Positions 1 through 53,188 of a stretch of DNA of 64,000 bases are shown in pieces. The position numbers and the translations under genes are program-made. The notes beneath the pieces are model-generated. The model saw only the letters and a list, made by a program, of their open reading frames with translations. It made no database searches and was not told where the DNA came from. The stretch spans positions 307,970 to 371,969 of the forward strand of contig CAWHHI010000005.1 in NCBI GenBank assembly GCA_963829055.1, in the 5' to 3' direction. Origin of the DNA: an uncultured Gemmatimonadaceae bacterium. GTDB taxonomy: Bacteria; Gemmatimonadota; Gemmatimonadetes; Gemmatimonadales; Gemmatimonadaceae. Position 1 is the stretch's first letter; each line of letters opens with the position of its first letter.

Positions 1-2282
1 AGATCATCACGAAGAAGGGACGTCCGGGCGCCAACCGGTTCGTGCAGAGCGTGCGCCTCGAGGCTGGCCGCACCGACCAGGATTACATGCCATACGACAA
101 CTATGGCAACTGCACGGAAGCGCTCGTCGCCCCCACGAGCACCAATCCTCTCTGCCGCGGGCAGGCGGTCGGCACGCTGGTCCACGACAACCCGCTCAAA
201 CGCGCTGACATCTTCCGCATCGGCAACGACTTCTCGTTAGGTTGGAACGCCACCGGCGGCGGCCAGAACTACGGGTACAACCTCACGTTCGGCAAGGAGA
301 GTGTGAACGGCACCCTGCCGAACAGCGGCCTGGACAAGCTCAACGCCCGCGTGAACTTCAACTTCGTTCCCGATCCCCGCCTAACGATCGATGCCGGGAT
401 TGGGCTCGTGCGGAACATGACGCAGCTGCCCAACCTGGACAACTCCGTCACCGGCTGGATCGCCGGAGGGATGCTCGGCTCCCCCCTGACGCGCACTGAC
501 CGGCCCGAAAACAGCAACGATGGTTGGTTCGGCTACAACCGCCAGTACAACGCGATCCGATCGGTCGACAACCGGTTGCGCACGAACCGGTCGATGCCGA
601 GCCTGACGGCGAACTATGGGCCGGTGTCCTGGTTCACCAACCGGTTTGTGCTGGGCGCCGACATCGCGACCGACCGTCAGGACGAGTACTACCCGAAGAA
701 CGACAGCTCGTGGTACACACCTGCGCTGCAGAACTCGGGTCAGGCGACCGAGGCGGCCCGCACCGCCGAACGGTACACGTTGGACTACCTCGGCAACATC
801 CGCCGCACGTTTGGAAAGGGGGACCAGTGGGAGGGCAACCTCTCCTTCGGGCTGCAGGCGGTGGCTACCAAGAACACGACCACCAACTCGCAGGGTGTCG
901 GGTTCGTGACGAACTCCAACAATACGATCACGTCCGCGGCAACGACCACCGGGGGTAGTCAGTTCACCGAGCAGACGCAGTACGGCTACCTCAGCCAGTT
1001 GCAGGTGGGCCTCAACAACCGTGCGTTCCTCCAGGTCGCGGTGCGCGTCGACAAGAACTCTGCGTTCGGTGAGACGGCGCCGGCGTTCGTGCTCCCCAAG
1101 GTGGGCGCCACATGGACGCTCTCCGAGGAACCGTTCTTCGAGGGCCTGACGAAATACGTGAATACGCTGCGAGTGCGCGGCTCGTGGGGCACGACGGGCC
1201 GTTCGCCGGCCCCCGGCGCGGCACTCTCCACGCTCATCGCCGCGCCGTACAACATCACGGGCACGACCGTCGCCGGGGCCAACCCCGGCAACCCTGGCAA
1301 CGCGGACTTGAGACCGGAGCGCGGCACCGAGTTCGAGGCCGGCTTCGACGCGAGCTTCTGGAAGGACCGGGTCACCGCTGAGCTCACGTACTTCGACAAG
1401 AAGACGACCGACCTGATCATCGCCAGGCCAATCCCGCCGTCGCTGGGCTTCAACACCAATCCGCTGGCGAACATTGGCGAGGTGATCAACCGAGGCATGG
1501 AGGCGGCGCTGAACGTGACCGCGGTCCAGACCACGAACTTCAGCTGGGACATCCGCGGCGGCCTCAACACGCTGCATAACGAGTTGACGGACCTGGGCGG
1601 CGTCGCGCCGTTCTCGCCCAGCACCAACGGCCGCACCCGCGCAATGAAGGGAGAGCAGATCGGCGTGTACGTGTCGAAGAAGATCCTGTCGATCGACGAT
1701 GCTTCGGGCGTAGTCACTGTCAGCGATACGCTCACGCCGATCGGTAACCTGTACCCGACGCTCGAGTGGAACCTCACGAACGGCGTCACGCTGATGAAGA
1801 ACTTCCGGATTACCGGGTCGTTCGACGCGAAGAAGGACTTCGTCGTCGACAACCTGCGGGATTGGTACACCGAGACGCTGCTCATTCACAGCCAGCGACG
1901 TCTCGATCCGAACTACTTGTCGCGCCACGAGCGACTGCGCCGCTACGGCAACGACGCGCCGGGCAAGCCGGCCTTCGTAACGCAGAAAGGTCTCTCGGCC
2001 ACGACGAGCGACGTCTACGAGGCCTTCGTTCAGCCGGGTGATTTCGTTCGATTCCGCGAGCTCTCGGCAACCTTCACGTTTCCGCAGAAGCTCGTGCGCA
2101 ACCTGGGCGCCAGAGTGCAAAACGTGTCAGTCGCCTTCGCGATGCAGAACATCAAGCTCTGGACCGACTACGAGGGCCCCGATCCGGAAGTCATCGCCCA
2201 GAACGGGACCTTCGATCGGCAGGATTTCTTCTCGCTGCCGCAACCGAAGCGGGCTCTCCTTCGGTTGAACTTCACCTTCTGA
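1..2282 (+). CDS. SusC/RagA-family TonB-dependent outer membrane receptor (5' end outside window)
   Basis: The frame begins 'IITKKG' at the window edge (end of plug). Motifs GNADLRPE..TEFEAG, YFDKKT.DLI, NIGEV.NRG.E, GDFVRFRE. C-terminal Phe. Directly followed by a SusD-like gene. Confidence 0.92.
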   Translation, partial: IITKKGRPGANRFVQSVRLEAGRTDQDYMPYDNYGNCTEALVAPTSTNPLCRGQAVGTLVHDNPLKRADIFRIGNDFSLGWNATGGGQNYGYNLTFGKESVNGTLPNSGLDKLNARVNFNFVPDPRLTIDAGIGLVRNMTQLPNLDNSVTGWIAGGMLGSPLTRTDRPENSNDGWFGYNRQYNAIRSVDNRLRTNRSMPSLTANYGPVSWFTNRFVLGADIATDRQDEYYPKNDSSWYTPALQNSGQATEAARTAERYTLDYLGNIRRTFGKGDQWEGNLSFGLQAVATKNTTTNSQGVGFVTNSNNTITSAATTTGGSQFTEQTQYGYLSQLQVGLNNRAFLQVAVRVDKNSAFGETAPAFVLPKVGATWTLSEEPFFEGLTKYVNTLRVRGSWGTTGRSPAPGAALSTLIAAPYNITGTTVAGANPGNPGNADLRPERGTEFEAGFDASFWKDRVTAELTYFDKKTTDLIIARPIPPSLGFNTNPLANIGEVINRGMEAALNVTAVQTTNFSWDIRGGLNTLHNELTDLGGVAPFSPSTNGRTRAMKGEQIGVYVSKKILSIDDASGVVTVSDTLTPIGNLYPTLEWNLTNGVTLMKNFRITGSFDAKKDFVVDNLRDWYTETLLIHSQRRLDPNYLSRHERLRRYGNDAPGKPAFVTQKGLSATTSDVYEAFVQPGDFVRFRELSATFTFPQKLVRNLGARVQNVSVAFAMQNIKLWTDYEGPDPEVIAQNGTFDRQDFFSLPQPKRALLRLNFTF

Positions 2283-2298
2283 CCCGCCGAGGACCGTC

Positions 2299-3546
2299 AT
2301 GCGAACCATCCGACGCGCGGTCTCGCGCACGCTGATCGCCACGGCCTTCGTCGTGGGCGCTTCCGCCTGTTCCGACAAATTTCTCGAAGTCGACAACCCT
2401 AACGTCATCGACGCCTCCACGGTCGATCCGAAGGAGGCTGCTGCCACTCTCGCCGCCTCCACGGAGCAGAACTTCAAAACGGCGGTTGGCACGTTCATTC
2501 AGTTCAGCTCGCACTTCACCGGCGAGACCTACATCATGGAGACCAGCGGAGCCCAGAACGAGTTCGGCCGCCGCGAGGTGTCCGAGCTGAACGGCCAGGC
2601 GTTGATCCAGTGGCGAGAGATGTCTCTGGCCGCGGCATCGGGCAAGCTGCTGCTGGACCTCACGCTGCCCGAGCCGACGACCAACATCAACATCGCGCGC
2701 GGCGCGACGTTCCGAGCCTACGCGATACTCTTTCTGGCGACCGATTTCTGCAGCGGTGCGCTCTCGTCGGGGCCCGAGCTCAACACCAACCAGATGCTCG
2801 ACACGGCGATCGTCTGGTTCACCAAGGCGATCGACGTGGGCAAGGCGAACGGCACCGCGACCGCGGTGAGCCTCGCCAATGCGTCGCTCGTCGGACGCGC
2901 TCGCGCGAAGCTGCAGAAGGGCGACAAGACCGGCGCGCTGGCCGATGCGAGTGCGGTGCCGGCGGGCTTTACCTTCATGATGACGTATCAGGACGACCTG
3001 GCGAATCGAACGCGCCTGTCGAACGCGCTCTGGCGCGGTACGGTCGACCGCAGTGTGATCAGCGTCCCGCCGTACTATCAAACCACCGATCCGCGCGTGA
3101 CGTGGCTCCCGCCGGGCAAGCACCCGTACAACGCGTGGGACGCGGCTGCGGGTCCGTACTTCATCCAGCAGAAGTACCCGGGGTACGCCTCGTCGATCCG
3201 GCTCGCCTCGAAGCTCGAGGCCGAGTACATCGCCGCCGAAGCGTCGGGCGACGTCACGGCGCAGCTCGCGCTGATCAACCGGCAACGTGCTGCCGCCCAG
3301 CTTCCGGCGTACAGCGGTCCCCAGGATGCCACGAGCGTGCTCACGGAACTGTTCAACCAGAAAGGCTTCGACTTCTGGCTCGAGGGGAAGCGGCTGGCCG
3401 ACTTCCGCCGCCAGCCGGTCGCCGCCGCGCGCTACGTGCCGGTCGCCGGAACTCCGTACTGGAGGCCGAACCTCGGGAATATTGGGGCGCAGACCTGCTA
3501 TCCGATGCCGTTCGCCGAGCGCGACAACAACCCGAACATTCCGTAG
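2299..3546 (+). CDS. RagB/SusD-family lipoprotein
   Basis: Lipobox ASAC, EAEYIAAEA and FWLEGKRLADFRR motifs, C-terminal PFAERDNNPN; immediately downstream of SusC. Confidence 0.9.
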   Translation: MRTIRRAVSRTLIATAFVVGASACSDKFLEVDNPNVIDASTVDPKEAAATLAASTEQNFKTAVGTFIQFSSHFTGETYIMETSGAQNEFGRREVSELNGQALIQWREMSLAAASGKLLLDLTLPEPTTNINIARGATFRAYAILFLATDFCSGALSSGPELNTNQMLDTAIVWFTKAIDVGKANGTATAVSLANASLVGRARAKLQKGDKTGALADASAVPAGFTFMMTYQDDLANRTRLSNALWRGTVDRSVISVPPYYQTTDPRVTWLPPGKHPYNAWDAAAGPYFIQQKYPGYASSIRLASKLEAEYIAAEASGDVTAQLALINRQRAAAQLPAYSGPQDATSVLTELFNQKGFDFWLEGKRLADFRRQPVAAARYVPVAGTPYWRPNLGNIGAQTCYPMPFAERDNNPNIP

Positions 3547-3570
3547 TAACCCCGGCCACTTGGAGGCCCC

Positions 3571-5658
3571 GTGAACCACTCCCGAACGTCCTCGAGCGCG
3601 GCGTCCTGTCTCGTCCTTCTTTGCGCGGCGTCTGCACTCCCGGCGCAGCCGCAGCAGCCGCCGCTGTCGAACAAGATCGTGCTCGAGCAGTACCTAGACT
3701 GGGAGGAAGTCCAGGCTCCGCAGCTCTCGCCCGATGGGACCCAGATCCTGTTCACGCGCCGGTGGGTGGACAAGATGAATGACCGGTGGGAAACCAGCGT
3801 CTGGCAGATGAACGCCGACGGGTCTCATCCCCGGTTCCTGGTGCAGGGGTCTAACGTCCAATGGTCGCCCGATGGCAAGCGGATCGCCTACATCGCTAAA
3901 GGCGAGCCGACCGGATCGCAGATCTGGGTACGGTGGATGGACGCCGAAGGCGCGGCGTCGCAGATCTCACACCTCACCGAAGCTCCGGCCGATCTCGAGT
4001 GGGCGCCCGATGGAAAGTCCATCGCGTTCACGATGATGGTACCGGTGCCGCAGCAGGGGTTCAAGATCCCGATGCCCACGCCGCCGAAGGGCGCGAAGTG
4101 GATCGAGCCGCCGAAGATTGTCACGCAACTCACCTTTCGAGCCGACCGGATCGGTTTCACCGACGAAGGATTCCGCCACATCTTCGTGATCCCGGCCGAC
4201 GGGGGCATGCCACGGCAGATCACCAACGGCAACTGGAGCCACAACTCGCCGAGCTTCTCGGCCGACGGCAAGTGGGTCGCGTTCTCTTCATACCGAGTCC
4301 CCGACGCGGAGCACGCGTTTGTCGGGCGCGGGCTCGAGACGGAGATCTATGTCGCGAGCACCGAGAATGGTGAGATCAAGCGGATCACGAACCATCCGGG
4401 CTCGGACGTCAATCCGACCTTCTCCCCGGACGGTCGGTACATCGCTTTCATGTCCGCCGACTCGATCGACCATTCCGCGTGGCCTGACACGAAGCTCATG
4501 CTGATGAACGCCGACGGGTCCGGCCGTCGCGTGATCTCGGGCGCCCTCGACCGCCCGATGTCCGACGTACGCTGGGCCCACGATGCCAGCGGCGTTTATT
4601 TCAACGTCGCGAGTGAGGGCTCGCAGAACCTCTACTTCGCGTCGGTCGGCGGCCAGGTGCGGGCGGTGACTACCGGAACGCACATGCTCGCGGTCAGCGA
4701 CATCAGCCGGAACGGCGTCGCCGTGGGCGTGCGCTCGACATCGCTCAAGCCTAACGACGTGGTGACGTTCACGATACCCAGGACGGGAACGGTGAGTACG
4801 TTCACGCAGGTCTCCGCCGTGAACGACGACGTGCTCGCCGGCAAGGCACTCGCGCAGACCGAGGAGGTGTGGTACACGTCGACGGACGGGCTCAAGATCC
4901 AGGGGTGGATTGTGAAGCCCGCTGATTTCGACGCGCGGAAGAAGTACCCGCTCATTCTCGAGATCCATGGCGGGCCACAGTCGATGTTCAATGTTGGGTT
5001 CAACTACGCCCGCCAGCACCACGCGGCTAACGGCTATGTGGTGTTGTACACGAACCCGCGCGGCAGCACCGGCTACGGCAACAAGTTCACGGACCTGATC
5101 AAGAACGCATACCCCGGCAAGGACTTCGATGACCTGATGGCGGGCGTGGACACGGTGATCGGCCGCGGCTACATCGACACGAAGAACATGTTCGTCTACG
5201 GTTGCTCCGGCGGTGGTGTACTCACGGCGTGGGTGGTGGGCCACACGGACCGCTTCGCCGCAGCCGCTTCGCTCTGCCCGGTGATCAACTGGATAAGCTT
5301 TGTCGGCCAGACGGACGGGTCAGGCTGGTATCAGACGTTCGACAAGCCGTTCTGGGAGGACCCGAGCGAGCACCTGCGCCGGTCGCCGATCATGTATGTG
5401 GGGCACGTGAAGACCCCGACGATCCTGATGACGGGGATCCTCGACCTGCGCACGCCGATGCCTCAGTCCGAGGAGTTCTACCGCGCGCTCGCCCTTCGCG
5501 GCATCCCGACAGCGCTCATCCGATTCAACAACGAGTACCACGGCACATCGAGCACGCCGTCGAACTATCTGCGCACGCAGCTCTATCTGCATAACTGGTT
5601 CGACAAGTACAGCACGAAGCCTGCGGCCCGCGCCACAACGTCGGGGGGCACGCCGTAG
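3571..5658 (+). CDS. S9 family peptidase (dipeptidyl/acylaminoacyl peptidase) with PD40/TolB-like propeller
   Basis: Signal peptide, WSPDG repeats, IHGGP, NPRGSTGYG, nucleophile GCSGGG, DLRTP and His in EYHG. Confidence 0.92.
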   Translation: MNHSRTSSSAASCLVLLCAASALPAQPQQPPLSNKIVLEQYLDWEEVQAPQLSPDGTQILFTRRWVDKMNDRWETSVWQMNADGSHPRFLVQGSNVQWSPDGKRIAYIAKGEPTGSQIWVRWMDAEGAASQISHLTEAPADLEWAPDGKSIAFTMMVPVPQQGFKIPMPTPPKGAKWIEPPKIVTQLTFRADRIGFTDEGFRHIFVIPADGGMPRQITNGNWSHNSPSFSADGKWVAFSSYRVPDAEHAFVGRGLETEIYVASTENGEIKRITNHPGSDVNPTFSPDGRYIAFMSADSIDHSAWPDTKLMLMNADGSGRRVISGALDRPMSDVRWAHDASGVYFNVASEGSQNLYFASVGGQVRAVTTGTHMLAVSDISRNGVAVGVRSTSLKPNDVVTFTIPRTGTVSTFTQVSAVNDDVLAGKALAQTEEVWYTSTDGLKIQGWIVKPADFDARKKYPLILEIHGGPQSMFNVGFNYARQHHAANGYVVLYTNPRGSTGYGNKFTDLIKNAYPGKDFDDLMAGVDTVIGRGYIDTKNMFVYGCSGGGVLTAWVVGHTDRFAAAASLCPVINWISFVGQTDGSGWYQTFDKPFWEDPSEHLRRSPIMYVGHVKTPTILMTGILDLRTPMPQSEEFYRALALRGIPTALIRFNNEYHGTSSTPSNYLRTQLYLHNWFDKYSTKPAARATTSGGTP

Positions 5659-5899
5659 CACGGTAGCACGGGTACTCATGGCGAGATTCGAGCGCGGGCG
5701 TCTCGACGCGAAGCGGCTGCTGTCCGCCGTCGCCGAGCGCCCGCGTCTCACTAGTCGGCCGGCTTGGCTGGTTTCGCCGCCGCCGATCCATCGAAGTTGC
5801 GCGCGTTCTGCCTGGTGATCTCTCACCGGTTGGTTGAGTAGTGCTACGAGTGCCGGCTGGACACATGCACTGATCGAACATCCCCCACGCGCGAATTCA

Positions 5900-6112
5900 A
5901 TGACTCGGGCACTGCTGCTCCTGACGGCCGTGATGACCACGGCAAGCCTAACGACGTCACTCGGTGCTCAAGGTGACGACGTCATCCTCGTTCGTGGCGC
6001 GACGATCTACACCGCGACTGGTGCACCCATCAGCAAGGGCAGCGTCCTGATCCGAGCCGGCGACTAACGTGGCGCCGCCCGCAGGGGCCAGGATCGTCGA
6101 AGCAGCCGGTCA
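5900..6112 (+). pseudogene. N-terminal remnant of an amidohydrolase, paralogous to 50695..51906
   Basis: LGAQGDDVILVRGATIYTATGAPISKGSVLIRAG, then NVAPPAGARIVEAAG after a frame change. This aligns to LGAQGDAILVRGGTINTATGAPITNGSILIRAG...NVTAPPGVRIVDAAG at 50695; similarity then stops. Confidence 0.8.
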
Positions 6113-6259
6113 TGGCTTAGAAGGGCGCGTCACACACGTCCGTTGCTCGAGCCAGCCTGGAACTCGCCTACGACCACGCCGGCGATGGGTAGTGCGAGCG
6201 ACGGCGTCCTGCGAAGATTGGATCTACAAAATGCGTCTGAACCGCGAGGAGGGACCAAC

Positions 6260-7934
6260 ATGCGCGCGCGATTCCTGAGCACGGCCGTGATCGCGTTAGG
6301 CCTGGCCGCTCGTCAGGCACCGACTCAACAGCCCGCACCGACGCGGCGACCCGTCGCCCAGCCGGCCAGTTCCGACACCGCAAGCCCAACGCGAAGCCCG
6401 CGATGACCCGCGCGTCGCACCGAAGCGCCGCGAGGGTGAAGGCCCGTTCCCGCGACTCATCATCAGGGGCACGACGCTGATCGACGGCACCGGCGCTCCA
6501 CCCCGCGGGCCCGTCGACATCGTGATCGAGAACAATCGCATCACGAACATCGCGAGCGTCGGGTACCCCGGCGTGCGGATCGACACAGCGGGACGCCCGC
6601 GCAATGCCACGCGCGAGATCGACGGGACAGGCATGTACGTGCTGCCCGGACTGGTGGACCTCCACGTCCATCAGGGCACCAAGCAGAAGGCGCCGGAGTC
6701 CGAGTACTACAACAAGCTCTGGCTCGCTCACGGTATCACGTCGGTGCGCGGCGTGCCGTTCGCGAGCTATGCCTATTCCATTGGCGAGAAGCGGCGGAGC
6801 GAGACGAACGAGATCACCGCACCGCGCTACTGGGTGTACCAGCGACCCGGCACCGGATGGCCGAAAGGCCAGGTCCAGAATCCGGAACAGGCGCGGGAGT
6901 GGGTTCGCTGGCTCGCGCAGAACGGAGGCGACGGCATCAAGCTCGGCGCCGAGAGACCCGACATCATGGCGGCGCTGCTCGACGAGGCGAAGAAACTCGG
7001 TCTGGGCAGCACCGCCCATCTGCAGCAGACCGGCGTCGCCCAGATGAACGCCGACGAGGCAACGCGACTCGGCCTCCAGACCGTGACGCACTTCTACGGG
7101 CTGTTCGAGAGCATGTACGAGAACAACTCCGTGCAGCCGTGGCCCGTCGACATGAACTACAACAACGAGCAGGACCGCTTCAGCCAGGTGGCTCGGCAAT
7201 GGTCGCTCGTAAAGCCGGGCGGCGAGAAGTGGAACGCGCTGCTCAACAAGTTCAAGGAACGCGACGTCACACTCGACCCGACCATGGTCGCGTACCTGAC
7301 GGGGCGTGACATGTTCCATCACATGAACGCGCCGTGGCATCAGAAATACACACTCCCCACGCTCTGGGCGTACTACCAGCCGAACCGTACGAATCACGGA
7401 TCGTACTGGTACTATTGGACCACCTGGGATGAGGTGGCGTGGCGCAACTTCTACCGGGTGTGGATGCAGTTCCTGAACGACTACAAGAACATGGGCGGGC
7501 GCGTCACGGCGAGCTCGGACGCCGGCTTCATCTACAACACGCCCGGATTCTCCACGATCCAGGAGATGGAACTGCTGCAGGAAGCGGGCTTTCACCCGCT
7601 CGAGGTCATTCGCGGCGCCACGCTCCACGCGGCCGAGACGCTGTTCAAGCCGAAGGGCCGCGAGGTCGAGCTGGGTGTCGTTAGGCGGGGCGCACTGGCC
7701 GACATCCTGATCGTCGATCAGAATCCGGTCGCGAACCTGAAGGTTCTCTATGGCATCGGGGCCCTCAAGCTCAACGACGAGACGGGGAAGCCGGAATGGG
7801 TGGGAGGCGTGAAATACACGATCAAGGACGGAATCGTCTACGACGCGAAGCAGCTGCTCGCCGACGTGGCCGCCATGGTCGACGAGCAGCGTAAGAAGAC
7901 GCCCGCGACGAACGAAGAAAGCGCGAAGCGTTAG
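6260..7934 (+). CDS. Secreted amidohydrolase family protein (frameshift near the 5' end)
   Basis: RBS GAGGAGG and ATG 6260 with signal peptide. IDGTGMYVLPGLVDLHVH (HxH), SSDAG, GALADILIVDQNP. Main ORF is 6522..7934. Confidence 0.85.
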
Positions 7935-7939
7935 GGCCG

Positions 7940-9301: not shown

Positions 9302-9957
9302 TCCGCCTGGCGCAGGCAATCGGTGTTCAGCGACTCTGACTCGGCGGATGCGGTTGGGCTGCCCGGTTTGGGCAGCACTTGCAGCAGCGGCGTTGGCTTC
9401 ACCGCAGTCGGCCCAACGAATGGCCGATCGTTGGCAAGGATCAGGACGATCGAGACGGCGATCGCCGTCGAGAACAGGCCTAACGCGATGCGCGCCGTCG
9501 CGCGACTGTCCGAGTGCACCATCGCGACGCCCACCAGCATGCAGACGGCCTGCAGGAGGAGCGCTGTCCACTTCACGCCGTTCACCTGCGTCTCGCTCAC
9601 GAGAATCCGCTGTCGTCGCGCGTCCAGCGCATTCTCCAGCGCCGACACGATTTCCCGCTGCGCGGCGACCTGCCCGGCCCCCTCCACCGGTGCGCCGAAC
9701 GTGACCCGGAGCGCCTGGGCGAGCGCCATCGGGATCATCGCCAGCGTCACCTCGCGGCGCGCCATCGCGGGCCACTCCTGACGTTCCACTTGCTGGATGT
9801 GCTGGCGTATCAGATCGCGAAGCTGTCCCGCCGCATCCGCCGGGAGCGCCTCCGAGAGCAGAACCGCCGCGCGGAGCGACGATGCCTCTCGATTCACGGC
9901 GGCGTTCGCTCGCTCGACGTCGCCCCACGCCTGCGACGCCAGGAACGCGACGAGCGT
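9169..9957 (-). pseudogene. DUF4239/bestrophin-like membrane domain lacking its N-terminus, fused in frame to the upstream gene
   Basis: LVAFLASQAWGDVERANAAVNREASSLR...EWPAM...LDARRQR...DRPFVG are typical of this family; the N-terminal TM segment is missing. Confidence 0.7.
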
Positions 9958-10744: not shown

Positions 10745-10747
10745 CGG

Positions 10748-11903: not shown

Positions 11904-11938
11904 TCGAGCCTCGTGTCTTTCAGGTTGCGGATGACGTA

Positions 11939-14656: not shown

Positions 14657-14736
14657 GGTTCACTCCGGTAGGCGCCCGAAACGCAGGATGCGCGCCGATG
14701 AGTCTGGTGTCGATCTTGCTTTTGGGATTTGGCTCA

Positions 14737-43321: not shown

Positions 43322-43333
43322 GGGGATGACCCG

Positions 43334-43756
43334 ATGCGTCTTCGCACAGCAGTGATCGGGTGTCTCGCGCTCGCGTCGCTCGCGTCGCTCGCGAGCTGCA
43401 AGGCTCCGACTCGACCGGCGTTTACGGGGGTGGTACGGGTGGGAACCAGGGGGCGCTGTGGGAGGCGGCGGCCCCGTGGGGGCGGTCACGATCGGTCCGA
43501 GCATTCGATTCATGAGTGCCCAAACGGAACCCAGAACCCGGCCGTGGACACCATCCCGGTCGGCGCCACGGTGACATGGACCTGGACCGGCTCGCTGCCG
43601 CACGGCGTCCAGTCGTTAGGCGCGACGAGCTTTGCCAGCAGCGGCATCAGGACGGGGAGCGGAACGCATGCGGTCACGTTCACCGCGCGGGGCACGTACC
43701 AGTACGACTGCGCGGTGCACGGCACGGCGATGAGGGGGACGATCGTCGTCGAGTAG
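43334..43756 (+). CDS. Plastocyanin/azurin-family lipoprotein (probable internal compensating frameshifts)
   Basis: Lipobox LASC; GATVTW..PHGV; YDCAVHGTAMRGTIVV. Confidence 0.8.
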   Translation: MRLRTAVIGCLALASLASLASCKAPTRPAFTGVVRVGTRGRCGRRRPRGGGHDRSEHSIHECPNGTQNPAVDTIPVGATVTWTWTGSLPHGVQSLGATSFASSGIRTGSGTHAVTFTARGTYQYDCAVHGTAMRGTIVVE

Positions 43757-43781
43757 GACCGGTCGCTGCCGGCCGCGGCGT

Positions 43782-45573: not shown

Positions 45574-45632
45574 TACGATCGATGCACGCCGTGAACTGCG
45601 GGTTCGTGAGTTCCGCACTGCTCACATCGTAG

Positions 45633-45656
45633 TTCACGTCTGTATTCACGTCTGTA
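45633..45656. repeat. Perfect 12-bp tandem direct repeat in the upstream region of the M61-like gene
   Basis: TTCACGTCTGTA x2. Confidence 0.75.
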
Positions 45657-45810
45657 TGGTAGCACCCCGCCGCCACGCTGCCTCTGTCATTCCGAGCGAA
45701 GCACCCGCCCTGGAGTTGTTAGGTGCCAATTTACTGCAGCAGCTGATGGTGGCGAACCGCCGCTGAGTCCCCGGATTGCGCAGCAAATCCGCACATGGGG
45801 GCAACGCGTG

Positions 45811-45851
45811 ACCCCCGGGATGCTCATCGAATCGATGAGCATCCCGGGGGT
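45811..45851 (-). terminator. Perfect 20-bp hairpin downstream of susD (terminator or mRNA-stabilising stem)
   Basis: ACCCCCGGGATGCTCATCGA-A-TCGATGAGCATCCCGGGGGT, ~48 bp past the susD stop; no U-tract. Confidence 0.65.
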
Positions 45852-45898
45852 TGTGTTCCTCGCGGCTCGAGGCTCGAGCCGCGATCCTCACGCTCGCG

Positions 45899-47179
45899 CT
45901 ATGCGTCGCGATTGATACAACCCGTGAACTTCGGATTGTTTCGCTCGGGCGTCGGAACGACGAAGTTCACGTCCGTTCCGAACTTGAGGCCATCCTTGTG
46001 ATAGTTGCCGGTCGGGAAGACCGACTCGGCTGGACGTGCATACTGGCGCACCAGGCGTCGCATATCGCCAAGCCGATGCGACGTGGCGAACAACGTGAAT
46101 GCTCGCTCTCGGAAGAGCAGATCAATGCGCGCCGCCGACGAGCCGGGATCCGTCACCGGGCCCAGTTTCTGGAACGCACGGAGATCGTTGACCTTCTGCA
46201 GGAACGTGGCGGTGTTCCCCTTCCGAAGCTCCGCCTCGGCCTCGATCAGCCGCGCTTCCGCTCCACTCGCGATCGTCGACGGTGAATCGAACCCCGTGAG
46301 CAGGGCGAAATAGTACCGCGGCGTCGTGGCATCGAACCGTGATGGCGAGCCGTTGCCAGTGATCGGAACACGCGGATCGTTCGCCGTGGCGTAGTTCAGT
46401 CCGTTCGTGCCTTCCTTCTCCGACACCAGCAGGCCGTCGCTGTTGAACATGTAGTTCCAGTAGAGGTTCTGCTGATACGGCGTCGTCGCCGAATGGAACG
46501 TCGTGTACTTGAAGTCGGTCGGAACGGATCCAACGGCCGTCGCCGCCGCATCGAACTGGCCGAGGTCGAGAAGCGCACGGGCCTTGAGCACGGCCGCGAG
46601 GCTTTTGATCCGCGCATCGCTCCCCGCAGCGGTATTGGCCGCGTCCAGCTTCGCAATGCCACCCTGGAATACTGCGGTGGTGGCGAGCGGCTCCGCTTCC
46701 TCTCCAATGTTGCCGATCGGAATACCGGAGCAGAACAACTCGGCGAGCAGCACGTAGGACAACCCCGAGATCGCGTTCATCTCGCCAATGCGCGGGTCCG
46801 ACGCGCTGACCACCTTGAGCGCCTCAGCCGCGCGATCGGCTTGACCGCGGAGCTGCTGGACGTTGCGGTAGACTGCCCACAGCAGGGTGTTCTGTTCAAT
46901 GAGTGAGCGCGTATCGAACTGCTTGATCTCCGGCGGCGTCGCACCGAAGCGCAGCTCGTCGGTGAACAGCCCGACCGTGGCGTTCACGCCCATGGCGGCG
47001 TCCATATACGCCGCGAGGTCGCCGATTACACCGGCATGAAGTGCGGTAACGCCCGCCGGATTGTTCAACCCGGTCGGATCGATGATGTCCGGTCGGTCGA
47101 CCTGGAGTATCCGGTCGGTGGAGCACCCGGTGAGCGCGATCGCCGTGATCACCAGCGCGCGTTTCGCGGTGAGGGTCAT
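45899..47179 (-). CDS. RagB/SusD-family lipoprotein
   Basis: Lipobox LTGC; EARLIEAEA, LFRERAFTLF..SHRLGDMRRL, ERNNPKF. Confidence 0.9.
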   Translation of the reverse strand: MTLTAKRALVITAIALTGCSTDRILQVDRPDIIDPTGLNNPAGVTALHAGVIGDLAAYMDAAMGVNATVGLFTDELRFGATPPEIKQFDTRSLIEQNTLLWAVYRNVQQLRGQADRAAEALKVVSASDPRIGEMNAISGLSYVLLAELFCSGIPIGNIGEEAEPLATTAVFQGGIAKLDAANTAAGSDARIKSLAAVLKARALLDLGQFDAAATAVGSVPTDFKYTTFHSATTPYQQNLYWNYMFNSDGLLVSEKEGTNGLNYATANDPRVPITGNGSPSRFDATTPRYYFALLTGFDSPSTIASGAEARLIEAEAELRKGNTATFLQKVNDLRAFQKLGPVTDPGSSAARIDLLFRERAFTLFATSHRLGDMRRLVRQYARPAESVFPTGNYHKDGLKFGTDVNFVVPTPERNNPKFTGCINRDA

Positions 47180-47219
47180 GTATGGCTCCAGTCGTCTCGT
47201 TGTCGTGTCGAGTCGCATG

Positions 47220-50200
47220 TCAGTAGCCCAGGTTGAACCGGATGATGAACGTCCTCGGCTGTCCCTGCTGCACGAAGTTGTAAGGAGTCGCATCCGTGCC
47301 CGTCGTGAGGATCTCGGGATCCCAGCCCGTGAAGTCGTTCGCCGTCCAGAGCCCCACGTTCCGGGCGCTCAACACGATCGTCGCCGAGCGCGAGCGCACG
47401 ATGCGCGTGACCGACTGCGGGAGGTCGTAGACCGCCGCGATCTCACGCACGCGAACGAAATCGCCCTTCTCCCAGTACGCGCCGAGCGCACGACCGACCG
47501 CCATCGCGCGCGCCTGGTCGAACTGTGGCGCTTTCGGGTCGTGAATGGCGCGGCAGTTGTTCGGGCCGAGTCCGCACGAGAATCCGGTGCTCACCTCGTG
47601 CGTCGTGAATCCGCCGCGGTAGTCGACGAGGGCCGAGAGACGGAGGTGATCGTTGAACAGGCCGACGGTGTTGTTGAACCCGATCGTCCGCGTGGGAACC
47701 GTGCTGCCACCGAAGACAGAGCCACTCGACACCTGAACCTCGCTAGGCTCGATGACGCCGTTGTTGTTCGCGTCGCTGTAGCCGGTCATGGTGGGCCAGT
47801 ACGCGGCGAACAGCGGCTGGCCTGGTTCGTTGCGATACCCGAAGCCACCGAAGGGCGAAACGCCAGGCGCCAGTGACTCGAGGCGGTTCTTGTTCCACGC
47901 CGCTTCGACCTGCAGGTCGTAGCGGAACGAGGTGAACTCGAGCACGCGCGCGTTGAGCGACACCTCGAGGCCTTTGTTCGTCACGACGCCGACGTTGTCG
48001 AAGACGTTGATGCCGGCGGTCTGCAATGGCGCGAGATCGCGCTGCACGATCGCGTCGGTCGTCTTCTTGTCGTAGTACGTCGTCTGCAGGTTGACCCGAC
48101 TGTGTAACGTGGTGACATCGAAGCCAAGCTCGATCTCACGCGACCGCTCGGGTTTCAGGTCCGTGTTGCCGAGCCGGCCGCCGAACGCCCCGAACGTCAC
48201 GGCGGGCACGGCACCGCTCAGGATCAATGCCGTCACCGGCGCAACGTAGGTGAACGCCGCGTTCACGTCGGGTTGCTGCCCCGACTCACCGAACGCGCCA
48301 CGCAGACGAAGGTTGTTGAGCCAGCGTGCCGCGCCGTTTTCCGCGGCGACCCACGACACGGTCGCCTTGGGATAGATCGCCGCACCGAAGTCGGCGCCGA
48401 ACGCGCTGTTCTCGTCGCGCCTAACGGCACCCGTGACGAACAGCCGGTCGTGCCATCCGAACTGCTGCTCGAGATACGCGCCCAGCGTGACGGCGTCGAC
48501 GGTCTGTTCGCTGGACTGCTTCTGCGCGCCCGCGTCGAGCGTCGAGCCGCCTGGCGGAAGAATGCGCGCATCGTTGAACGTCACCGCGCGCTTGTCGCGG
48601 TTCCACTGGGCGCCGATCAATGTCTTCGACGTCAGGTCGTTGCTGATGTTCCTGTTCGCCGTGGCACCGAGATCGACGGAGTACTTGCCGTTGTTGTACT
48701 TGCTGATGCCGCGAAGGCCTTGCCACTCAATGCCGCAGATCTGGCATCCCTCGCCTGCCCGCACTTTCGCCTCGTCGTTCCACATGATGTAGTCGATACC
48801 CACGGTTGCCCGTGTCTGGATCCAGTCGACCGGCCGCCAGTTGGCGTTCGCCGAGTTCGTGAACTGGTTCTGTGTGCGCGTGACTGACTTCGAGAAGCCC
48901 TGACGCGGCGGGGCGAAGCCCCACACGTTTGGCACGTTTGGATTCGCCGTCCCGAACAGCGCCGAGCCGACCACGCCCTGCAGATTGTCACCCGTCTGCG
49001 GAAGCAGGTTGCTCATCGTGTTCATGCCGGCGGAGATCGCGAGGTCGGACTTCGGGGTCATTGTGACGTTGAAGTTGCCGCGAAGCCCCGTCCTCGACAT
49101 TTGATTCGGTAATCGCTGATCCCGCGGGATGGACGTCGTGTTGCGAATGCGATACAGCGAATCCAGCTCGCTGTCCGGCATCTTCAGCACGCCGACTTCG
49201 CCTTCCCACGTCCCCGAGACGAAGTAGCGAAGCTGGTCCGAGCCACCGGACACCTGGGCGCCATACTGCTGGCGATTCCCCGTGCCGAACGGCGTCGTCT
49301 CCTTGTCCTCGAGGAGATTGCGCGAGTAGCGCTGCTGCACCGTGCAGAGCCCCTGCACCTCACGCCAGCTCACACAATCGATCGGCTGGCCCGCCGTTGT
49401 TGTACCCTTGTTGTAGTACTGGCCTGGGTAGTCGTAGGGATCGACGCTCGTGCCCAGCACGGCGAAGAGGTCCCACCGCGGCGCGCCGGTCCTTCCACGC
49501 TTCGTGGTGACGACAATGACGCCGTTCGCCGACTGCGTGCCGTAGAGCGTCGCGGCCAATGGGCCCTTCACGATCTCGATGGTCTCGATCTCTTCCGGAT
49601 TCAGGTTGTTGAGAAAGCTCGGGCGCCCGCCACCGACACCCGTCTGCCCAACCGTCAATGGATTGATGTTGGGACTTCCGTTCTCGACGCGCACGCCGTC
49701 GACGATCACGAGTGGATCGTTCGACAGCGAAGCGGAGCTGATGCCGCGAACTCGAACGCGCGATCCACCGCCAACGGTGCCGTTCGACTGGATCAACGTG
49801 ACGCCGGCGGTGCGCCCGTTCAGCACATCCTGCATCGCCGTGATCGGCTGCTCCTGCACCAGCTTCGCGGTCTCGATCTTCGCGATCGAGTTTCCAAGCT
49901 CGCGGGTGAGTTGTTGTCCCGTCGCCGTCGTGACGACCGTCTCGAGTTGGAACGCGGCCTTGGCGAGCACGAAATCGAGTGTCGTCTCCTGTGCGGCGCT
50001 GACGGTCACGCTTTGTTGGCTGGACTGATAGCCGAGCGCGATCACGCGCACCGTGTGCCCGCCCGCGGGCAGACCGCGCACGAGGTAGACGCCTTGCTGG
50101 TTCGTTTGGGTGCCGAGGTTTGTTCCGACGATCTGAATCTGCGCAAACGGGATGGGTTGTCCGGACTCTTTTTCGGTGATCTTGCCTGTGAGTCGGACTT

Positions 50201-50291
50201 GATTGGCTTGCGCGAGAGCCGTCCCGCTGCCGAGAGCAGCGGCCAGCACGACGACCAACGCGCGTCGAGAGAACATCACGACGCAGGGCAT
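47220..50291 (-). CDS. SusC/RagA-family TonB-dependent receptor
   Basis: Carboxypeptidase-regulatory-like N-domain, LETVVTTATG, VRVRG...DPLVIVDGV, LNPEEIETIEIVKG..AATLYG..ANGVIVVTTKRG. Confidence 0.93.
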   Translation of the reverse strand: MPCVVMFSRRALVVVLAAALGSGTALAQANQVRLTGKITEKESGQPIPFAQIQIVGTNLGTQTNQQGVYLVRGLPAGGHTVRVIALGYQSSQQSVTVSAAQETTLDFVLAKAAFQLETVVTTATGQQLTRELGNSIAKIETAKLVQEQPITAMQDVLNGRTAGVTLIQSNGTVGGGSRVRVRGISSASLSNDPLVIVDGVRVENGSPNINPLTVGQTGVGGGRPSFLNNLNPEEIETIEIVKGPLAATLYGTQSANGVIVVTTKRGRTGAPRWDLFAVLGTSVDPYDYPGQYYNKGTTTAGQPIDCVSWREVQGLCTVQQRYSRNLLEDKETTPFGTGNRQQYGAQVSGGSDQLRYFVSGTWEGEVGVLKMPDSELDSLYRIRNTTSIPRDQRLPNQMSRTGLRGNFNVTMTPKSDLAISAGMNTMSNLLPQTGDNLQGVVGSALFGTANPNVPNVWGFAPPRQGFSKSVTRTQNQFTNSANANWRPVDWIQTRATVGIDYIMWNDEAKVRAGEGCQICGIEWQGLRGISKYNNGKYSVDLGATANRNISNDLTSKTLIGAQWNRDKRAVTFNDARILPPGGSTLDAGAQKQSSEQTVDAVTLGAYLEQQFGWHDRLFVTGAVRRDENSAFGADFGAAIYPKATVSWVAAENGAARWLNNLRLRGAFGESGQQPDVNAAFTYVAPVTALILSGAVPAVTFGAFGGRLGNTDLKPERSREIELGFDVTTLHSRVNLQTTYYDKKTTDAIVQRDLAPLQTAGINVFDNVGVVTNKGLEVSLNARVLEFTSFRYDLQVEAAWNKNRLESLAPGVSPFGGFGYRNEPGQPLFAAYWPTMTGYSDANNNGVIEPSEVQVSSGSVFGGSTVPTRTIGFNNTVGLFNDHLRLSALVDYRGGFTTHEVSTGFSCGLGPNNCRAIHDPKAPQFDQARAMAVGRALGAYWEKGDFVRVREIAAVYDLPQSVTRIVRSRSATIVLSARNVGLWTANDFTGWDPEILTTGTDATPYNFVQQGQPRTFIIRFNLGY

Positions 50292-50694
50292 GGCAAGTTG
50301 GGCTGTCGGTGATGAATCGTCCCGGAGCGGACCGGGCGGGGTCGGCGGGAGGCGGTCGCCCGCCGTTCGAGTGTGCTCCTCCTCGCGCGATTGGCGTTAG
50401 GCAATCAGAGGGACTAGCGGAGGCGCTTCGTGCCCAAGACTGGCAACAATTGAGACCGCCCGCAAGCAGTATGGTCCATTCTCACTGAATCAGCTCGCTC
50501 GCCGGCGCACTCACGGCTCCCCGCGTGCCGGACGCGCAAGCCCACGGACATGCGCCGCGCCGTGCCGGTCACGCGACGCGCTGTTGACGCGACCGCCGCT
50601 GACACGTAAGACATGTCGTGCTCGAGCAACTCGCGCCGAGCGACCGTCGTGCTGCGCTGCCACGCGTACGATCGAACCCTGTCTATTCGATCTC

Positions 50695-51906
50695 ATGATC
50701 CCGACATTCCTGCGCCTGACGTCCGTCGTAGCGGCGACCGTCGTCCTGACGCTGCCTCTTGGCGCTCAAGGCGACGCCATCCTCGTTCGTGGCGGAACCA
50801 TCAACACGGCGACGGGGGCACCGATTACGAACGGCAGCATCCTGATCCGGGCCGGCAAGATCGTCGCGGTCGGAACGAACGTGACGGCGCCGCCAGGCGT
50901 CAGGATCGTCGATGCGGCAGGGAAGGTCGTCATCCCCGGCATGATCGACAATCACTCCCACATCGGCGCTCGGTCAACCGATCTGAACGACTCCCCGATG
51001 TTGATCGGGCCGCAGCATCGGTTCATCGACGCGCTCGACTGGAACGATCCCGATTTTCAGGATGCCGTCGAAGGCGGTGTCACCACCGTCGTGACCGGCC
51101 CCGGGAGCGGTGAGAACGTCAGTGGGATGGCCGCGGTGATCAAGACGTTCGGCGCCGACTACACGAGGCGGATGCTCCTCGAGAAGGGCGGGATGAAGTT
51201 CGCGATGGGCCCCAAGGGACGGGCACGCTACCCCGCGACGGCGATGGGCGTCGCCGCCAACCTTCGTCAGTACCTGATCAAGACGCAGGAGTACATGGCG
51301 GCGCAGAAGAAGTGGGAGGATGACGGGAAGAAGGGAAACCCGCCGGCGCGCGATCTCGGCTACGAGGCAATGTCCGACGTCCTGACGAAGAAGACGTACG
51401 TGCGTGCGCACGTGCACTCGGCGACGGACGTGATGACCCTGACGCGGCTCAAGGACGAGTTCGGATTCGACCTGACCATGCATCACTCGACGGAGGCGTA
51501 CAAAGTCGCGCCGGAGCTGGCCAAGCGCGGCATCTCCGCCGTCGTGCTCCCGTTAGGCCCCCGCATTGGCGTGGGCGAGGATGCCATGGCCGGCCCCTAC
51601 ATCTTGTGGAAGGCCGGCGTCAAGATCGCGATGCACACCGACGCCCCGGTCATCAGCGAGAAGTGGCTTCGGCTCTGCGCCGCGCTGGCGATGCGCTACG
51701 GGATTCCCGAGGACGAAGCACTCAAAATGGTGACCTTGAATGCCGCGGAGATCGCGCGCGTCGCCGACCGCGTCGGCAGCATCGCCGTCGGCAAGGACGC
51801 CGATCTGGTGATCTTCAATGGGCCGTGGTACGAGCCCAGGTCGCGGGTCGATTTCGTGATCGGAGACGGCGTGGTGATCTACGATCGCGCGAAGGAGGCC
51901 AAGTAA
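50695..51906 (+). CDS. Secreted amidohydrolase
   Basis: PGMIDNHSH, GGVTT, HVH, MHH, HTDAP, GSIAVGKDADLV. Confidence 0.88.
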   Translation: MIPTFLRLTSVVAATVVLTLPLGAQGDAILVRGGTINTATGAPITNGSILIRAGKIVAVGTNVTAPPGVRIVDAAGKVVIPGMIDNHSHIGARSTDLNDSPMLIGPQHRFIDALDWNDPDFQDAVEGGVTTVVTGPGSGENVSGMAAVIKTFGADYTRRMLLEKGGMKFAMGPKGRARYPATAMGVAANLRQYLIKTQEYMAAQKKWEDDGKKGNPPARDLGYEAMSDVLTKKTYVRAHVHSATDVMTLTRLKDEFGFDLTMHHSTEAYKVAPELAKRGISAVVLPLGPRIGVGEDAMAGPYILWKAGVKIAMHTDAPVISEKWLRLCAALAMRYGIPEDEALKMVTLNAAEIARVADRVGSIAVGKDADLVIFNGPWYEPRSRVDFVIGDGVVIYDRAKEAK

Positions 51907-51907
51907 C

Positions 51908-53188
51908 ATGTCCCACGCTCCTCGCAGCTCTCAGCTCGCTGCATCCATCGCGACCGCACTGCTCGTCTTCTCCGCATCGGCCTCGGCCCAGGAGCGGGCG
52001 ATCGCGATCCGTGGCGGCACTGTGCTGCCCATTAGCGGGCCCGCGATCCCCAACGGCACCGTCGTCATTCGCGGCGGGAAGATCGTAGCCGTCGGTGCCA
52101 ACGTCACCGTGCCCGCCGGCGCGGAGATCGTCGACGCGGCGGGGAAGTATGTCATGCCCGGGGTGATCGACGCCGTGTCACACATCGGCATCGACGCCAA
52201 CGACCTGAACGAGCCCACGGACCCGATGACGCCCCAGAATCGCGCGTGGGAGGCCTACAACCCGTTCGGCACATTCGGCTCGGGGCAGGTTGCTCCGCTC
52301 CGCAACAAGGAAGCGCTGTCGGGCGGCGTTACCACTCAGTACATCGCGCCGGCCGACGCCCAGTTGTTAGGCGGCCAGGGGGCGGTGGTGAAAACCGCTG
52401 GTGCCACGCTCGACGGCGTCCTGCTGCGCGAGCCGGCCGCCATGGACATGGCGCTCGGGACCCCGCCCAAGACGCCCGCACGCGCAGCGAACCGGGATCC
52501 GTTCACCCGCATGGCCGAGGCCGCAATGTTGCGGCAGTTGTTCGTGAAAGCGCAGGAGTATCAGCGCAACAAGACCGCGAACGCGACGACTCCGCGCGAC
52601 CTCGGCATGGAAGCGTTAGGCAGGATGCTGCGCAAGGAAATCCCGGCGCGGATCGAGGCGAACAACGCGACGGATATTCGCATGGCCTTGCGGCTGGCCC
52701 AGGAGTTCGGCTTCGACGTCGTGATCGACGGCGGCGCCGGCGCGTGGGAGCTCAAGGACGAGCTGGTGGCGAAAAAGGTGGCCGTCGTCCTTGGCCAGGT
52801 GTCCCACGAGTACATCAGCAACGAAGAGATCCCCGACAAGCAGGACTACCCCAAGCCTGACGAACGTCTCGCTGCGAGGCTGACGAACGCTGGCATTCCC
52901 ACCGCGATAGCGACGTTCTCCCGCGCGTTCGGTACGCTCGCGCCTGCAGGGACCGGGAAATGGTTGCTGATCGACGCGGCGATCGCGGCGGGCTATGGCA
53001 TGACGGATGATCAGGTGCTGAGAGCGGTGACATTGGTGCCGGCCCAGATCCTCGGCGTCGCCGATCGTGTGGGCTCGCTGGAAGTCGGCAAGGACGCGGA
53101 CGTCGTCGTGCTCGATGGACCGCCGCTGAGTGTGAAGACGTGGGTGCAGCGGGTGTACGTGAGTGGGGAGCTCGTGTACACGAAGTGA
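51908..53188 (+). CDS. Secreted amidohydrolase-like protein with degenerate metal ligands
   Basis: PGVIDAVSH (first His lost), GGVTT, GSLEVGKDADVV; starts 1 bp after the upstream stop. Confidence 0.85.
   Translation: MSHAPRSSQLAASIATALLVFSASASAQERAIAIRGGTVLPISGPAIPNGTVVIRGGKIVAVGANVTVPAGAEIVDAAGKYVMPGVIDAVSHIGIDANDLNEPTDPMTPQNRAWEAYNPFGTFGSGQVAPLRNKEALSGGVTTQYIAPADAQLLGGQGAVVKTAGATLDGVLLREPAAMDMALGTPPKTPARAANRDPFTRMAEAAMLRQLFVKAQEYQRNKTANATTPRDLGMEALGRMLRKEIPARIEANNATDIRMALRLAQEFGFDVVIDGGAGAWELKDELVAKKVAVVLGQVSHEYISNEEIPDKQDYPKPDERLAARLTNAGIPTAIATFSRAFGTLAPAGTGKWLLIDAAIAAGYGMTDDQVLRAVTLVPAQILGVADRVGSLEVGKDADVVVLDGPPLSVKTWVQRVYVSGELVYTK

What the first reader, a model, noticed from the sequence alone, without database searches (positions are those of the whole stretch)
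379..52621. The octamer is written into coding sequence in several frames through rare codons and stop codons
Seen: CGC CTA ACG (R-L-T, 378), AAG CCT AAC GAC (K-P-N-D, 4747), GTT AGG (V-R, 7680), CCG TTA GGC (P-L-G, 51550) and GCG TTA GGC (A-L-G, 52613). The motif also supplies the TAG stops of the DUF1269 gene (31606) and, as the variant CGTTAGGG, of the amidohydrolase (7932). TTA, CTA and AGG look otherwise scarce in these GC-rich genes. Inference: the motif is maintained at DNA level regardless of frame (selection or molecular drive) and is not a protein motif.
Basis: partly seen in the sequence, partly recalled or inferred. Interest (0 to 1): 0.72.

Follow-up and report, generated by a model that had tools for sequence, protein, structure and literature searches.

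The report
Shared DNA word, two soil phyla
This soil bacterium has written the eight-letter DNA word CGTTAGGC thousands of times into ordinary genes against its own codon habits, an unrelated group of soil bacteria and a few phages carry the same word, and it looks like a DNA-uptake self tag spelled like the end of integron gene cassettes, though what reads it is still unknown.

Summary
Confirmed. CGTTAGGC/GCCTAACG occurs 51 times in the window (2.5 expected) and 5,004 times genome-wide. It fills all four stop-free frames and many stop codons. Leu between xCG and GGC is TTA in 1,268 of 2,854 cases, against 0.45% elsewhere. Sites arise by substitution, persist between congeners, show no replichore skew, and avoid each other within about 300 bp in every orientation. 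A triple-word scan of the GTDB species collection hit only Gemmatimonadota and Verrucomicrobiota (mostly Chthoniobacterales), where the word is TCGTTAGGC and integron attC ends beside intI read CTCGTTAG. Two tailed phages use nearly every codon opportunity. Methylation, Chi/KOPS, ComP and attC membership fail. Best reading (0.5): an uptake-type self tag spread by molecular drive; uptake is untested. A FimT-like pilin is a weak receptor lead. The scan found this word before on other DNA, in both phyla. New here: the codon tests, the variant map, the two-phylum limit, the attC flank match and the candidates ruled out.

The parts
379..55624 (.). 51 exact copies of CGTTAGGC/GCCTAACG dispersed on both strands (first at 379, last at 55617); part of 5,004 genome-wide copies
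379..386 (+). GCCTAACG read as CGC CTA ACG (R-L-T) in a TonB-dependent receptor gene
4749..4756 (+). GCCTAACG read as AAG CCT AAC GAC (K-P-N-D) in an S9 peptidase gene
7679..7686 (+). CGTTAGGC read as GTC GTT AGG CGG (V-V-R-R) in the amidohydrolase gene 6522-7934
7929..7936 (+). variant CGTTAGGG supplying the TAG stop of the amidohydrolase gene; this variant is enriched and is avoided near exact sites
31604..31611 (-). CGTTAGGC on the minus strand supplying the TAG stop of the DUF1269 gene 31606-32166
51551..51558 (+). CGTTAGGC read as CCG TTA GGC (P-L-G) in an amidohydrolase gene
52614..52621 (+). CGTTAGGC read as GCG TTA GGC (A-L-G) in an amidohydrolase gene

Best explanation
The word is a self tag read on double-stranded DNA in either orientation, most likely at the DNA-uptake step of natural transformation, as DUS and USS are. 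Fragments bearing it are taken up and recombined more often, so point mutations that complete the word spread by molecular drive wherever the protein tolerates them. A second copy within about 200-300 bp adds little, which would match short DNA fragments. Shown: over-representation, frame independence, origin by substitution, conservation, orientation-free spacing, dialects, an intact comEC in relatives and a FimT-fold pilin. Inferred: uptake itself, drive, the receptor and the fragment size.
For: Synonymous choice follows the word only (2741 of 5123 codon opportunities used in G000; 0 of 26 in G016 and 0 of 18 in G147). Sites are kept in congeners although 4-fold sites are only 53-57% identical: 27 of 48 vs G005 and 26 of 56 vs G004, against matched common-codon words 7 of 24 and 12 of 50; no gap lay opposite a G000 site. 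Pairs under 200 bp number 213 vs 630 expected, decay length about 186 bp, while control words are not depleted; the depletion holds in all four orientations. Edge variants CGTTAGGT, TGTTAGGC, CGTTAGGG and CGTTATGC are enriched 2.7-12x and avoid exact sites (0.36-0.45); CGTCAGGC and CGTTCGGC do not (1.04, 1.06). No replichore skew: 1186 of 2282, against 122 of 154 for a KOPS-like control. Density falls in low-GC3 genes (38 vs 72 per 100 kb). Dialects exist: G119 frees the first base, G000 and G014 the last, Chthoniobacterales add a T (462 of 474). comEC is found in 50 of 51 genomes. A basic minor pilin with an invariant C-terminal R-x-G-R has the FimU/GspH/FimT fold (Z 13.2 to FimU, 9.6 to FimT). 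DUS and USS show the same traits: point-mutation origin, scarcity in newly acquired DNA, and spacing tied to fragment size (PMC7811141, PMC2397512, passages).
Against: Uptake was not tested. comEC and the FimT-like pilin occur in word-rich and word-poor genomes alike, so no gene tracks the word by presence. No ComP over the Pfam cut-off (0 of 5). No close FimT-like orthologue was found in five word-rich Chthoniobacterales. Two tailed phages use 9 of 9 and 12 of 14 codon opportunities, more than hosts do (they were found by a word-based scan, so biased upward), and no close prophage of one of them was found in 301 family genomes; drive by transformation explains this only if they are temperate. 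Short-range exclusion is weak in G398. In DUS/USS genomes the preferred frames use common codons (PMC2817400, section read), whereas here the top frame uses the rare TTA. Paired copies in terminators are rare.
Confidence: 0.5

Rival explanations
1. Intracellular licence tag: a host protein binds the word on incoming or resident DNA and shields a few hundred bases from a nuclease or silencer. Tagged transforming DNA then survives (drive at a later step) and phages are selected to mimic the tag.
For: Phage L098/L109 has a site about every 310 bp with CV 0.4, near the exclusion length. Its 78 other relatives have 2 sites in about 850 kb. Phages use more codon opportunities than hosts.
Against: Only 48% of the host genome lies within 300 bp of a site, variants included. 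Phage tail-fibre genes run over 1.5 kb without one. No nuclease tracking the word was found; none was searched for systematically.
Confidence: 0.18
2. HIP1-like chromosomal binding site: a nucleoid or repair protein needs one site per few hundred bases, and selection on chromosome function keeps it.
For: Conservation beyond codons, even spacing, and similar density on a megaplasmid of a named type strain (36 in 50 kb). A structural role has been proposed for HIP1 (PMC5861425, abstract).
Against: Density ranges from under 10 to 1,250 per Mb among kin, and one genus holds both states (G119 3,896, G151 4,141, G147 66). Word-poor G147 and G016 show no dispersed replacement word. No candidate protein was found.
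Confidence: 0.12
3. The integron integrase itself drives the word: IntI binds its core on incoming DNA and favours recombination of word-bearing alleles.
For: The word fits the attC core GTTRRRY, and GCCTAAC is the R'' of attC-aadB (PMC12901181, passages). In word-poor relatives the copies are attC ends. IntI was found in 9 of 10 word-rich vs 38 of 64 other family genomes (p 0.08) and in 5 of 6 very rich Verrucomicrobiota genomes.
Against: At most 62 of 5,002 G000 sites have even a loose attC-like hairpin. Word-poor genomes have intact intI and long arrays. G000 holds only a divergent and a partial intI, G014 a frameshifted one, and 5 of 24 word-rich Gemmatimonadales show none. IntI trees follow the phylum, not the word. 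Chthoniobacterales attC cores mostly read GTTAGAC/T (9 of 13), which the genome does not favour (4 vs 462).
Confidence: 0.1
4. Methylation-linked or purely mutational origin, as in the methyl-directed repair model for HIP1 (recalled).
For: A type IIG-like adenine methyltransferase with an SNF2 partner is present in every word-rich Gemmatimonadales genome in which it was found.
Against: That gene is order-wide (153 of 161 genomes, rich and poor alike) and has no orthologue in five word-rich Chthoniobacterales. The published methylome of Gemmatirosa kalamazoonensis, whose plasmid carries the word, lists only RGATCY, ATGCAC and CCAGN7TCA (PMC3974934, whole text). No m5C methylase in 4 of 5 rich genomes. 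Mutation alone does not give mutual exclusion.
Confidence: 0.05

Closest known systems
DNA uptake sequences: USS of Pasteurellaceae and DUS of Neisseriaceae
   Same: Thousands of copies of a short non-palindromic word, about one per 1-1.5 kb, on both strands, inside genes in several frames, made by point mutation, scarce in recently acquired DNA, with dialects between genera.
   Different: Different word and phyla. No ComP. Few terminator pairs. The top frame uses a rare codon. The same core occurs in two unrelated phyla, is patchy within a family, equals an integron core, and is dense in some phages. Uptake is unshown.
HIP1 (GCGATCGC) of cyanobacteria
   Same: Octamer over-represented 20-fold or more, conserved beyond codons, non-random spacing; recently linked to transformation genes (PMC13756078, abstract and discussion).
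   Different: HIP1 is a palindrome holding methylase sites. This word is asymmetric and not among the methylated motifs reported for a carrier strain.
Integron attC core sites (R' GTTRRRY, R'' RYYYAAC)
   Same: Identical spelling. In word-poor relatives the copies are attC ends. In word-rich Chthoniobacterales the T before the word matches the CTCGTTAG of attC ends next to intI (13 of 16).
   Different: Genome-wide copies are single, lie in core genes, and lack the partner box and hairpin (at most 62 of 5,002 have one).
Chi and KOPS
   Same: Abundant asymmetric octamer; phage mimicry of Chi is recalled, not found in my search.
   Different: No replichore skew, and opposite-orientation pairs exclude each other as strongly as same-orientation pairs.
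FimT (Legionella, Xylella) and PpdA/ComN (predicted USS receptor)
   Same: The family-wide pilin has the GspH/FimT fold and a C-terminal GRxR-like motif, which binds DNA in FimT (PMC8897410, passages). A PpdA cluster is among its Atlas look-alikes.
   Different: FimT is described as non-specific (10.1101/2025.06.16.659825, abstract). The pilin is present in word-poor genomes too, and binding was not tested.

Membership tests
DUS/USS uptake sequences | Strong genome-wide over-representation on both strands, in genes in several frames | tested here: met
DUS/USS uptake sequences | Arises by substitution and is conserved beyond synonymous sites | tested here: met
   27 of 48 and 26 of 56 kept vs controls 7 of 24 and 12 of 50; no gaps opposite G000 sites
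DUS/USS uptake sequences | Competence machinery present | tested here: met
   comEC 50 of 51, ComEA-type HhH 5 of 5, type IV pilins; also present in word-poor genomes
DUS/USS uptake sequences | Word-dependent DNA uptake | not testable with these tools
   needs an uptake assay
DUS (Neisseriaceae) | ComP receptor | tested here: not met
   PF16732 over its cut-off in 0 of 5 word-rich genomes
DUS/USS uptake sequences | Sequence-specific pilin receptor tracking the word | tested here: inconclusive
   FimT-like pilin matched in 28 of 30 and 28 of 30 genomes. Leu in its R-x-G-R motif: 22 of 22 poor vs 5 of 11 rich genera; permutation p 0.13 and 0.027 with a second statistic chosen afterwards
HIP1 | Palindromic word | tested here: not met
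   CGTTAGGC differs from its reverse complement GCCTAACG
HIP1 | Methylated by a cognate methylase | tested here: not met
   PMC3974934 lists three other motifs for a strain whose plasmid carries the word; partial or m5C modification is not excluded
Chi / KOPS | Polarity along replichores | tested here: not met
   52% vs 79% for the GGGCAGGG control
Integron attC site | R'' and R' boxes 55-140 bp apart that fold into a hairpin | tested here: not met
   at most 62 of 5,002 G000 sites; the same test recovers the arrays in L003 and L004
Integron attC site | Core spelled GTTRRRY | tested here: met
   sequence; consensus from PMC12901181 (passages)
GspH/FimT minor pilins (candidate receptor) | GspH/FimT fold and C-terminal GRxR motif | tested here: met
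   model pLDDT 93; FimU Z 13.2, rmsd 2.3, 113 aligned; FimT Z 9.6, rmsd 3.0, 100 aligned; invariant R129 G131 R132 in 54 of 54

The most novel reading that the evidence does not exclude
Two unrelated, abundant soil phyla converged on the same uptake signal because each evolved a DNA receptor that prefers the end of integron gene cassettes, fishing cassettes out of environmental DNA. Molecular drive then wrote that cassette end through the chromosome and turned it into a self tag shared across phyla and copied by phages. This would explain an identical octamer with no shared receptor gene found so far, its repeated appearance within Gemmatimonadales, and the match between the Chthoniobacterales T and their attC flank. 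Transformation does feed cassettes to chromosomal integrons in Vibrio (PMC12614218, abstract).
Probability: 0.2. Interest if true: 0.92.

Novelty: new variant of a known kind. Interest (0 to 1): 0.74.

Why it matters
Sequence-specific DNA uptake is established in only two bacterial families. A third signal, shared by soil Gemmatimonadaceae and Chthoniobacterales and spelled like an integron crossover core, would show biased gene exchange among major soil groups and could tie transformation to cassette capture. It is testable now, because a cultured type strain carries the word. It is also a practical marker: word-free blocks flag likely foreign DNA in this assembly, and word-rich phages point to their host group.

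Tried and rejected
Insertion or MITE origin: no gaps opposite G000 sites. attC remnants: at most 62 of 5,002. Chi/KOPS: no skew. Helical phasing of pairs: none. Type IIG-like methylase + SNF2 pair: looked promising in five rich genomes, but is order-wide, has no clean discriminating residue, and no orthologue was found in Chthoniobacterales. Divergent IntI of G000 (L008): its closest relative is in word-poor G147. comEC residues: no convincing column. ComEA and pilin inventories of 5 genomes: nothing specific to rich genomes. Shared-gene hunt: ORFs from 391 kb of G398 (about 12% of it) plus 33 smaller loci against G000 gave only housekeeping genes and one unannotated 130-aa protein at 74% as top hits; most of that genome was not examined. 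Population polymorphism at sites: one search showed 40 of 1,381 differences, none in a site (0.3 expected), so it is uninformative. Prophage search for phage L098: only distant matches in 2 of 301 genomes, without the word. Of the viral loci from five scans (38, 48, 80 of 122, 8 and 35), most were chance pairs or attC arrays; four contig groups had dispersed high density (L081/L098/L109, L470/L471, L188/L413, L637). The ML tree did not finish; FastTree gene trees are rough and are not species trees. The search for a paper on Chi mimicry by phages returned nothing.
Full report
OBSERVATION. The octamer is CGTTAGGC/GCCTAACG. The window has 51 copies against 2.5 expected. The genome G000 (7.78 Mb, 20 contigs) has 5,004, split 2,547 and 2,457 by strand. 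Named Gemmatimonadota records match G000 proteins at a median 64% identity and named Verrucomicrobiota records at 38%, which fits the family Gemmatimonadaceae given in earlier notes. Gene calls are my own hexamer-model calls on an assembly with frameshifts.

(1) Codon shares: the exact word holds 1200 of 2449 TTA, 533 of 3123 CTA and 381 of 4672 AGG. With four variants it holds 1827 of 2704 TTA (second gene set). The claim is strong for TTA, modest for CTA and weak for AGG. (2) Synonymous choice: TTA in xCG-Leu-GGC 1268 of 2854 vs 554 of 123,623 in unrelated contexts; CTA in xGC-Leu-ACG 599 of 1114 vs 2766 of 155,825; CCT in xxG-Pro-AAC 997 of 1635 vs 3153 of 45,228; AGG after xxC GTT 507 of 1862 vs 195 of 4846. 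CDS copies number 3,153 against 128-156 in five synonymous shuffles. All four stop-free frames are used, and the other two supply 165 of 661 TAA and 129 of 1327 TAG stops. (3) Orthologues (pairs below an identity floor were dropped, leaving 62 of 103, 109 of 179, 71 of 110 and 69 of 113): G000 sites are identical in congeners G005 (27 of 48) and G004 (26 of 56) although 4-fold sites are only 57% and 53% identical; matched common-codon words are kept 7 of 24 and 12 of 50. Against word-rich G014 of another genus only 4 of 31 are identical (6 more are variants), and against word-poor G016 0 of 21. No gap lies opposite a G000 site, so sites come and go by substitution.

SPATIAL SIGNATURE. Pairs closer than 100 and 200 bp number 67 and 213 against 302 and 630 expected. 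The fitted decay length is about 186 bp, and two control words show no deficit. The deficit is the same for direct, convergent and divergent pairs. Using that deficit as a read-out, CGTTAGGT, TGTTAGGC, CGTTAGGG and CGTTATGC behave as functional variants, while CGTCAGGC, CGTTCGGC, CGTGAGGC and CGTTGGGC do not. There is no replichore skew (1186 of 2282; KOPS-like control 122 of 154). Density is 38 per 100 kb in the lowest GC3 sextile and 72 in the highest. Three word-free blocks of 31-50 kb lie at or near contig ends. They hold fragmented housekeeping-type genes, two of them at 70-73% GC, and are probably foreign DNA joined in the assembly (inference).

RANGE. All six congeners have 2,501-5,112 copies and G014 has 6,360. 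In an order-wide sample, 12 of 160 other genomes reach 100 per Mb, in all three families; most have under 20 per Mb, and one genus holds both states. On comEC and methylase gene trees the rich state is scattered over at least seven branches (rough trees). A named record, Gemmatirosa kalamazoonensis plasmid NZ_CP007129.1, has 36 copies in 50 kb. A scan of the GTDB genome collection for three copies in mixed orientation returned 37 loci and only two groups: 19 loci from 8 Gemmatimonadota genomes and 18 from 16 Verrucomicrobiota genomes, 12 named Chthoniobacterales or Spartobacteria and 4 Verrucomicrobiae. After removing the three selecting copies, density is 9.6 and 9.0 per 10 kb. The scan detects only very rich genomes, so weaker cases elsewhere are not excluded. 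Five of the Verrucomicrobiota genomes hold 2,494-4,562 copies, but only 2 of 150 others of that class are rich. There the word is TCGTTAGGC (462 of 474 in 391 kb of G398), it uses the same four frames, and short-range exclusion is weak. G119 keeps GTTAGGC and frees the first base.

INTEGRON LINK. The word fits the attC core GTTRRRY (PMC12901181, passages). In word-poor relatives the copies are attC ends in cassette arrays (L003, L004). In G000 at most 62 of 5,002 sites have even a loose hairpin partner. Beside intI in five loci from four word-rich Chthoniobacterales genomes, 13 of 16 CGTTAG-R-Y ends are preceded by CT, matching that lineage's extra T. Against this, 9 of those 13 end in AC or AT rather than GC, and a T is also common at that place in some Gemmatimonadales arrays (8 of 10 in L004). 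IntI is only weakly commoner in rich genomes (9 of 10 vs 38 of 64, p 0.08; 19 of 24 counting partial copies, p 0.13), and IntI trees follow the phylum.

PHAGES. One tailed phage (L081, L098, L109) has a site about every 310 bp through its lysis and virion genes but few in its tail-fibre genes; 78 relatives have 2 sites in about 850 kb. A second (L470: portal, terminase) has 31 in 17 kb. They use 9 of 9 and 12 of 14 codon opportunities; a third (L413) uses 5 of 11, G000 2741 of 5123 and G014 68 of 89. These phages were found by word-based scans, the counts are small, and their hosts and lifestyles are unknown.

WHAT READS IT. Not found. Methylases fail: a type IIG-like methylase with an SNF2 partner is order-wide (153 of 161) and has no orthologue in the five Chthoniobacterales searched, m5C methylases are missing from 4 of 5 rich genomes, and the published methylome of the named carrier strain lists three other motifs (PMC3974934, whole text). 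comEC matches in 50 of 51 genomes; ComP is not found over its cut-off. A single-copy basic minor pilin (G000 C8, about 164.9-165.3 kb, frameshifted in this assembly) has the FimU/GspH/FimT fold and ends in an invariant R-x-G-R. The x is Leu in 22 of 22 word-poor genera and 5 of 11 rich ones, but the richest lineages keep Leu, the test gave p 0.13 and then 0.027 with a second statistic (4 mid-density genomes left out, one genome per genus, kinship above genus not modelled), and no close orthologue exists in the Chthoniobacterales searched. It is a weak lead.

MECHANISM. An orientation-free reader with diminishing returns over a few hundred bases, graded variants, dialects, scarcity in atypical genes and substitution origin is the DUS/USS pattern (PMC2397512 and PMC7811141, passages; PMC2817400, abstract and one section). 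I put uptake-type drive at 0.5. The phage data keep an intracellular licence tag alive (0.18). The same octamer in two phyla needs either a transferred reader or convergence on one outside template. No shared gene was found in three candidates or a 12% genome sample, and attC ends are such a template; that is the novel case (0.2).

NOVELTY. Full-text searches found no paper with either octamer, none describing the heptamers as a genome-wide word (two hits, one an attC mutation, one seen only as a listing of an unrelated cancer paper), no Gemmatimonadota uptake-sequence paper among the 20 listed of 267, and nothing for Chthoniobacterales. Subscription papers are not covered and no supplements were read. 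Other papers seen: PMC5861425 (abstract), PMC13756078 (abstract and discussion), PMC8897410 (passages), 10.1101/2025.06.16.659825 (abstract), PMC12614218 (abstract). The scan's own notes already report the word in both phyla and in a phage; they are leads, not independent support.

Noticed in passing
G000:C8:73.5-78.3 kb; L302-L305, L322-L368: Type IIG-like N6-adenine methylase followed by an SNF2 helicase; the methylase is found, mostly once, in 153 of 161 Gemmatimonadales genomes, unusual for a restriction-type enzyme. Earlier notes report it too.
   Followed up: partly
L008:1468-2445 (G000:C20): Divergent IntI-like protein just over the TIGR02249 cut-off. By eye (recalled motif) it lacks the catalytic Lys and has Arg for the first His; its closest match is in G147.
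   Followed up: partly
G000:C6:5440-55037, C6:591808-623330, C11:1-46789: Word-free blocks at or near contig ends with fragmented housekeeping-type genes, two at 70-73% GC; probably foreign DNA in the assembly.
   Followed up: partly
L420, L424, L431/L432, L437, L448, L469: Viral contigs with runs of attC-like hairpins spaced about 350 bp between short genes, i.e. phage-borne cassette-like arrays.
   Followed up: partly
L116, L129 and other relatives of phage L098: GGCGGTGG is over-represented 45-75x and strictly on one strand (27:0, 30:0); Chi-like or Gly-rich coding, not resolved.
   Followed up: no
L406:132-4010: Fourteen same-strand copies of CCGTTAGGCGATGG between short genes of a 42% GC phage contig; a promoter-like repeat.
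   Followed up: no
window 63673-63824 (+): c-di-AMP riboswitch aptamer (RF00379, 82 bits).
   Followed up: no
G000 genome-wide: Other repeated words: GGAATGACA (536 copies) and GACAGGATTG-type repeats enriched near the octamer; REP-like by recall.
   Followed up: no
L314-L321 (G147): The word-poor congener carries short repeat words (AGAAAGCA, AGGGTTCA, ACAGGAAA) and no copy or variant of the octamer in 142 kb.
   Followed up: no
G000:C18:97493-97548: One terminator-like hairpin closed by an inverted pair of the word, the DUS-type arrangement that is otherwise rare here.
   Followed up: no
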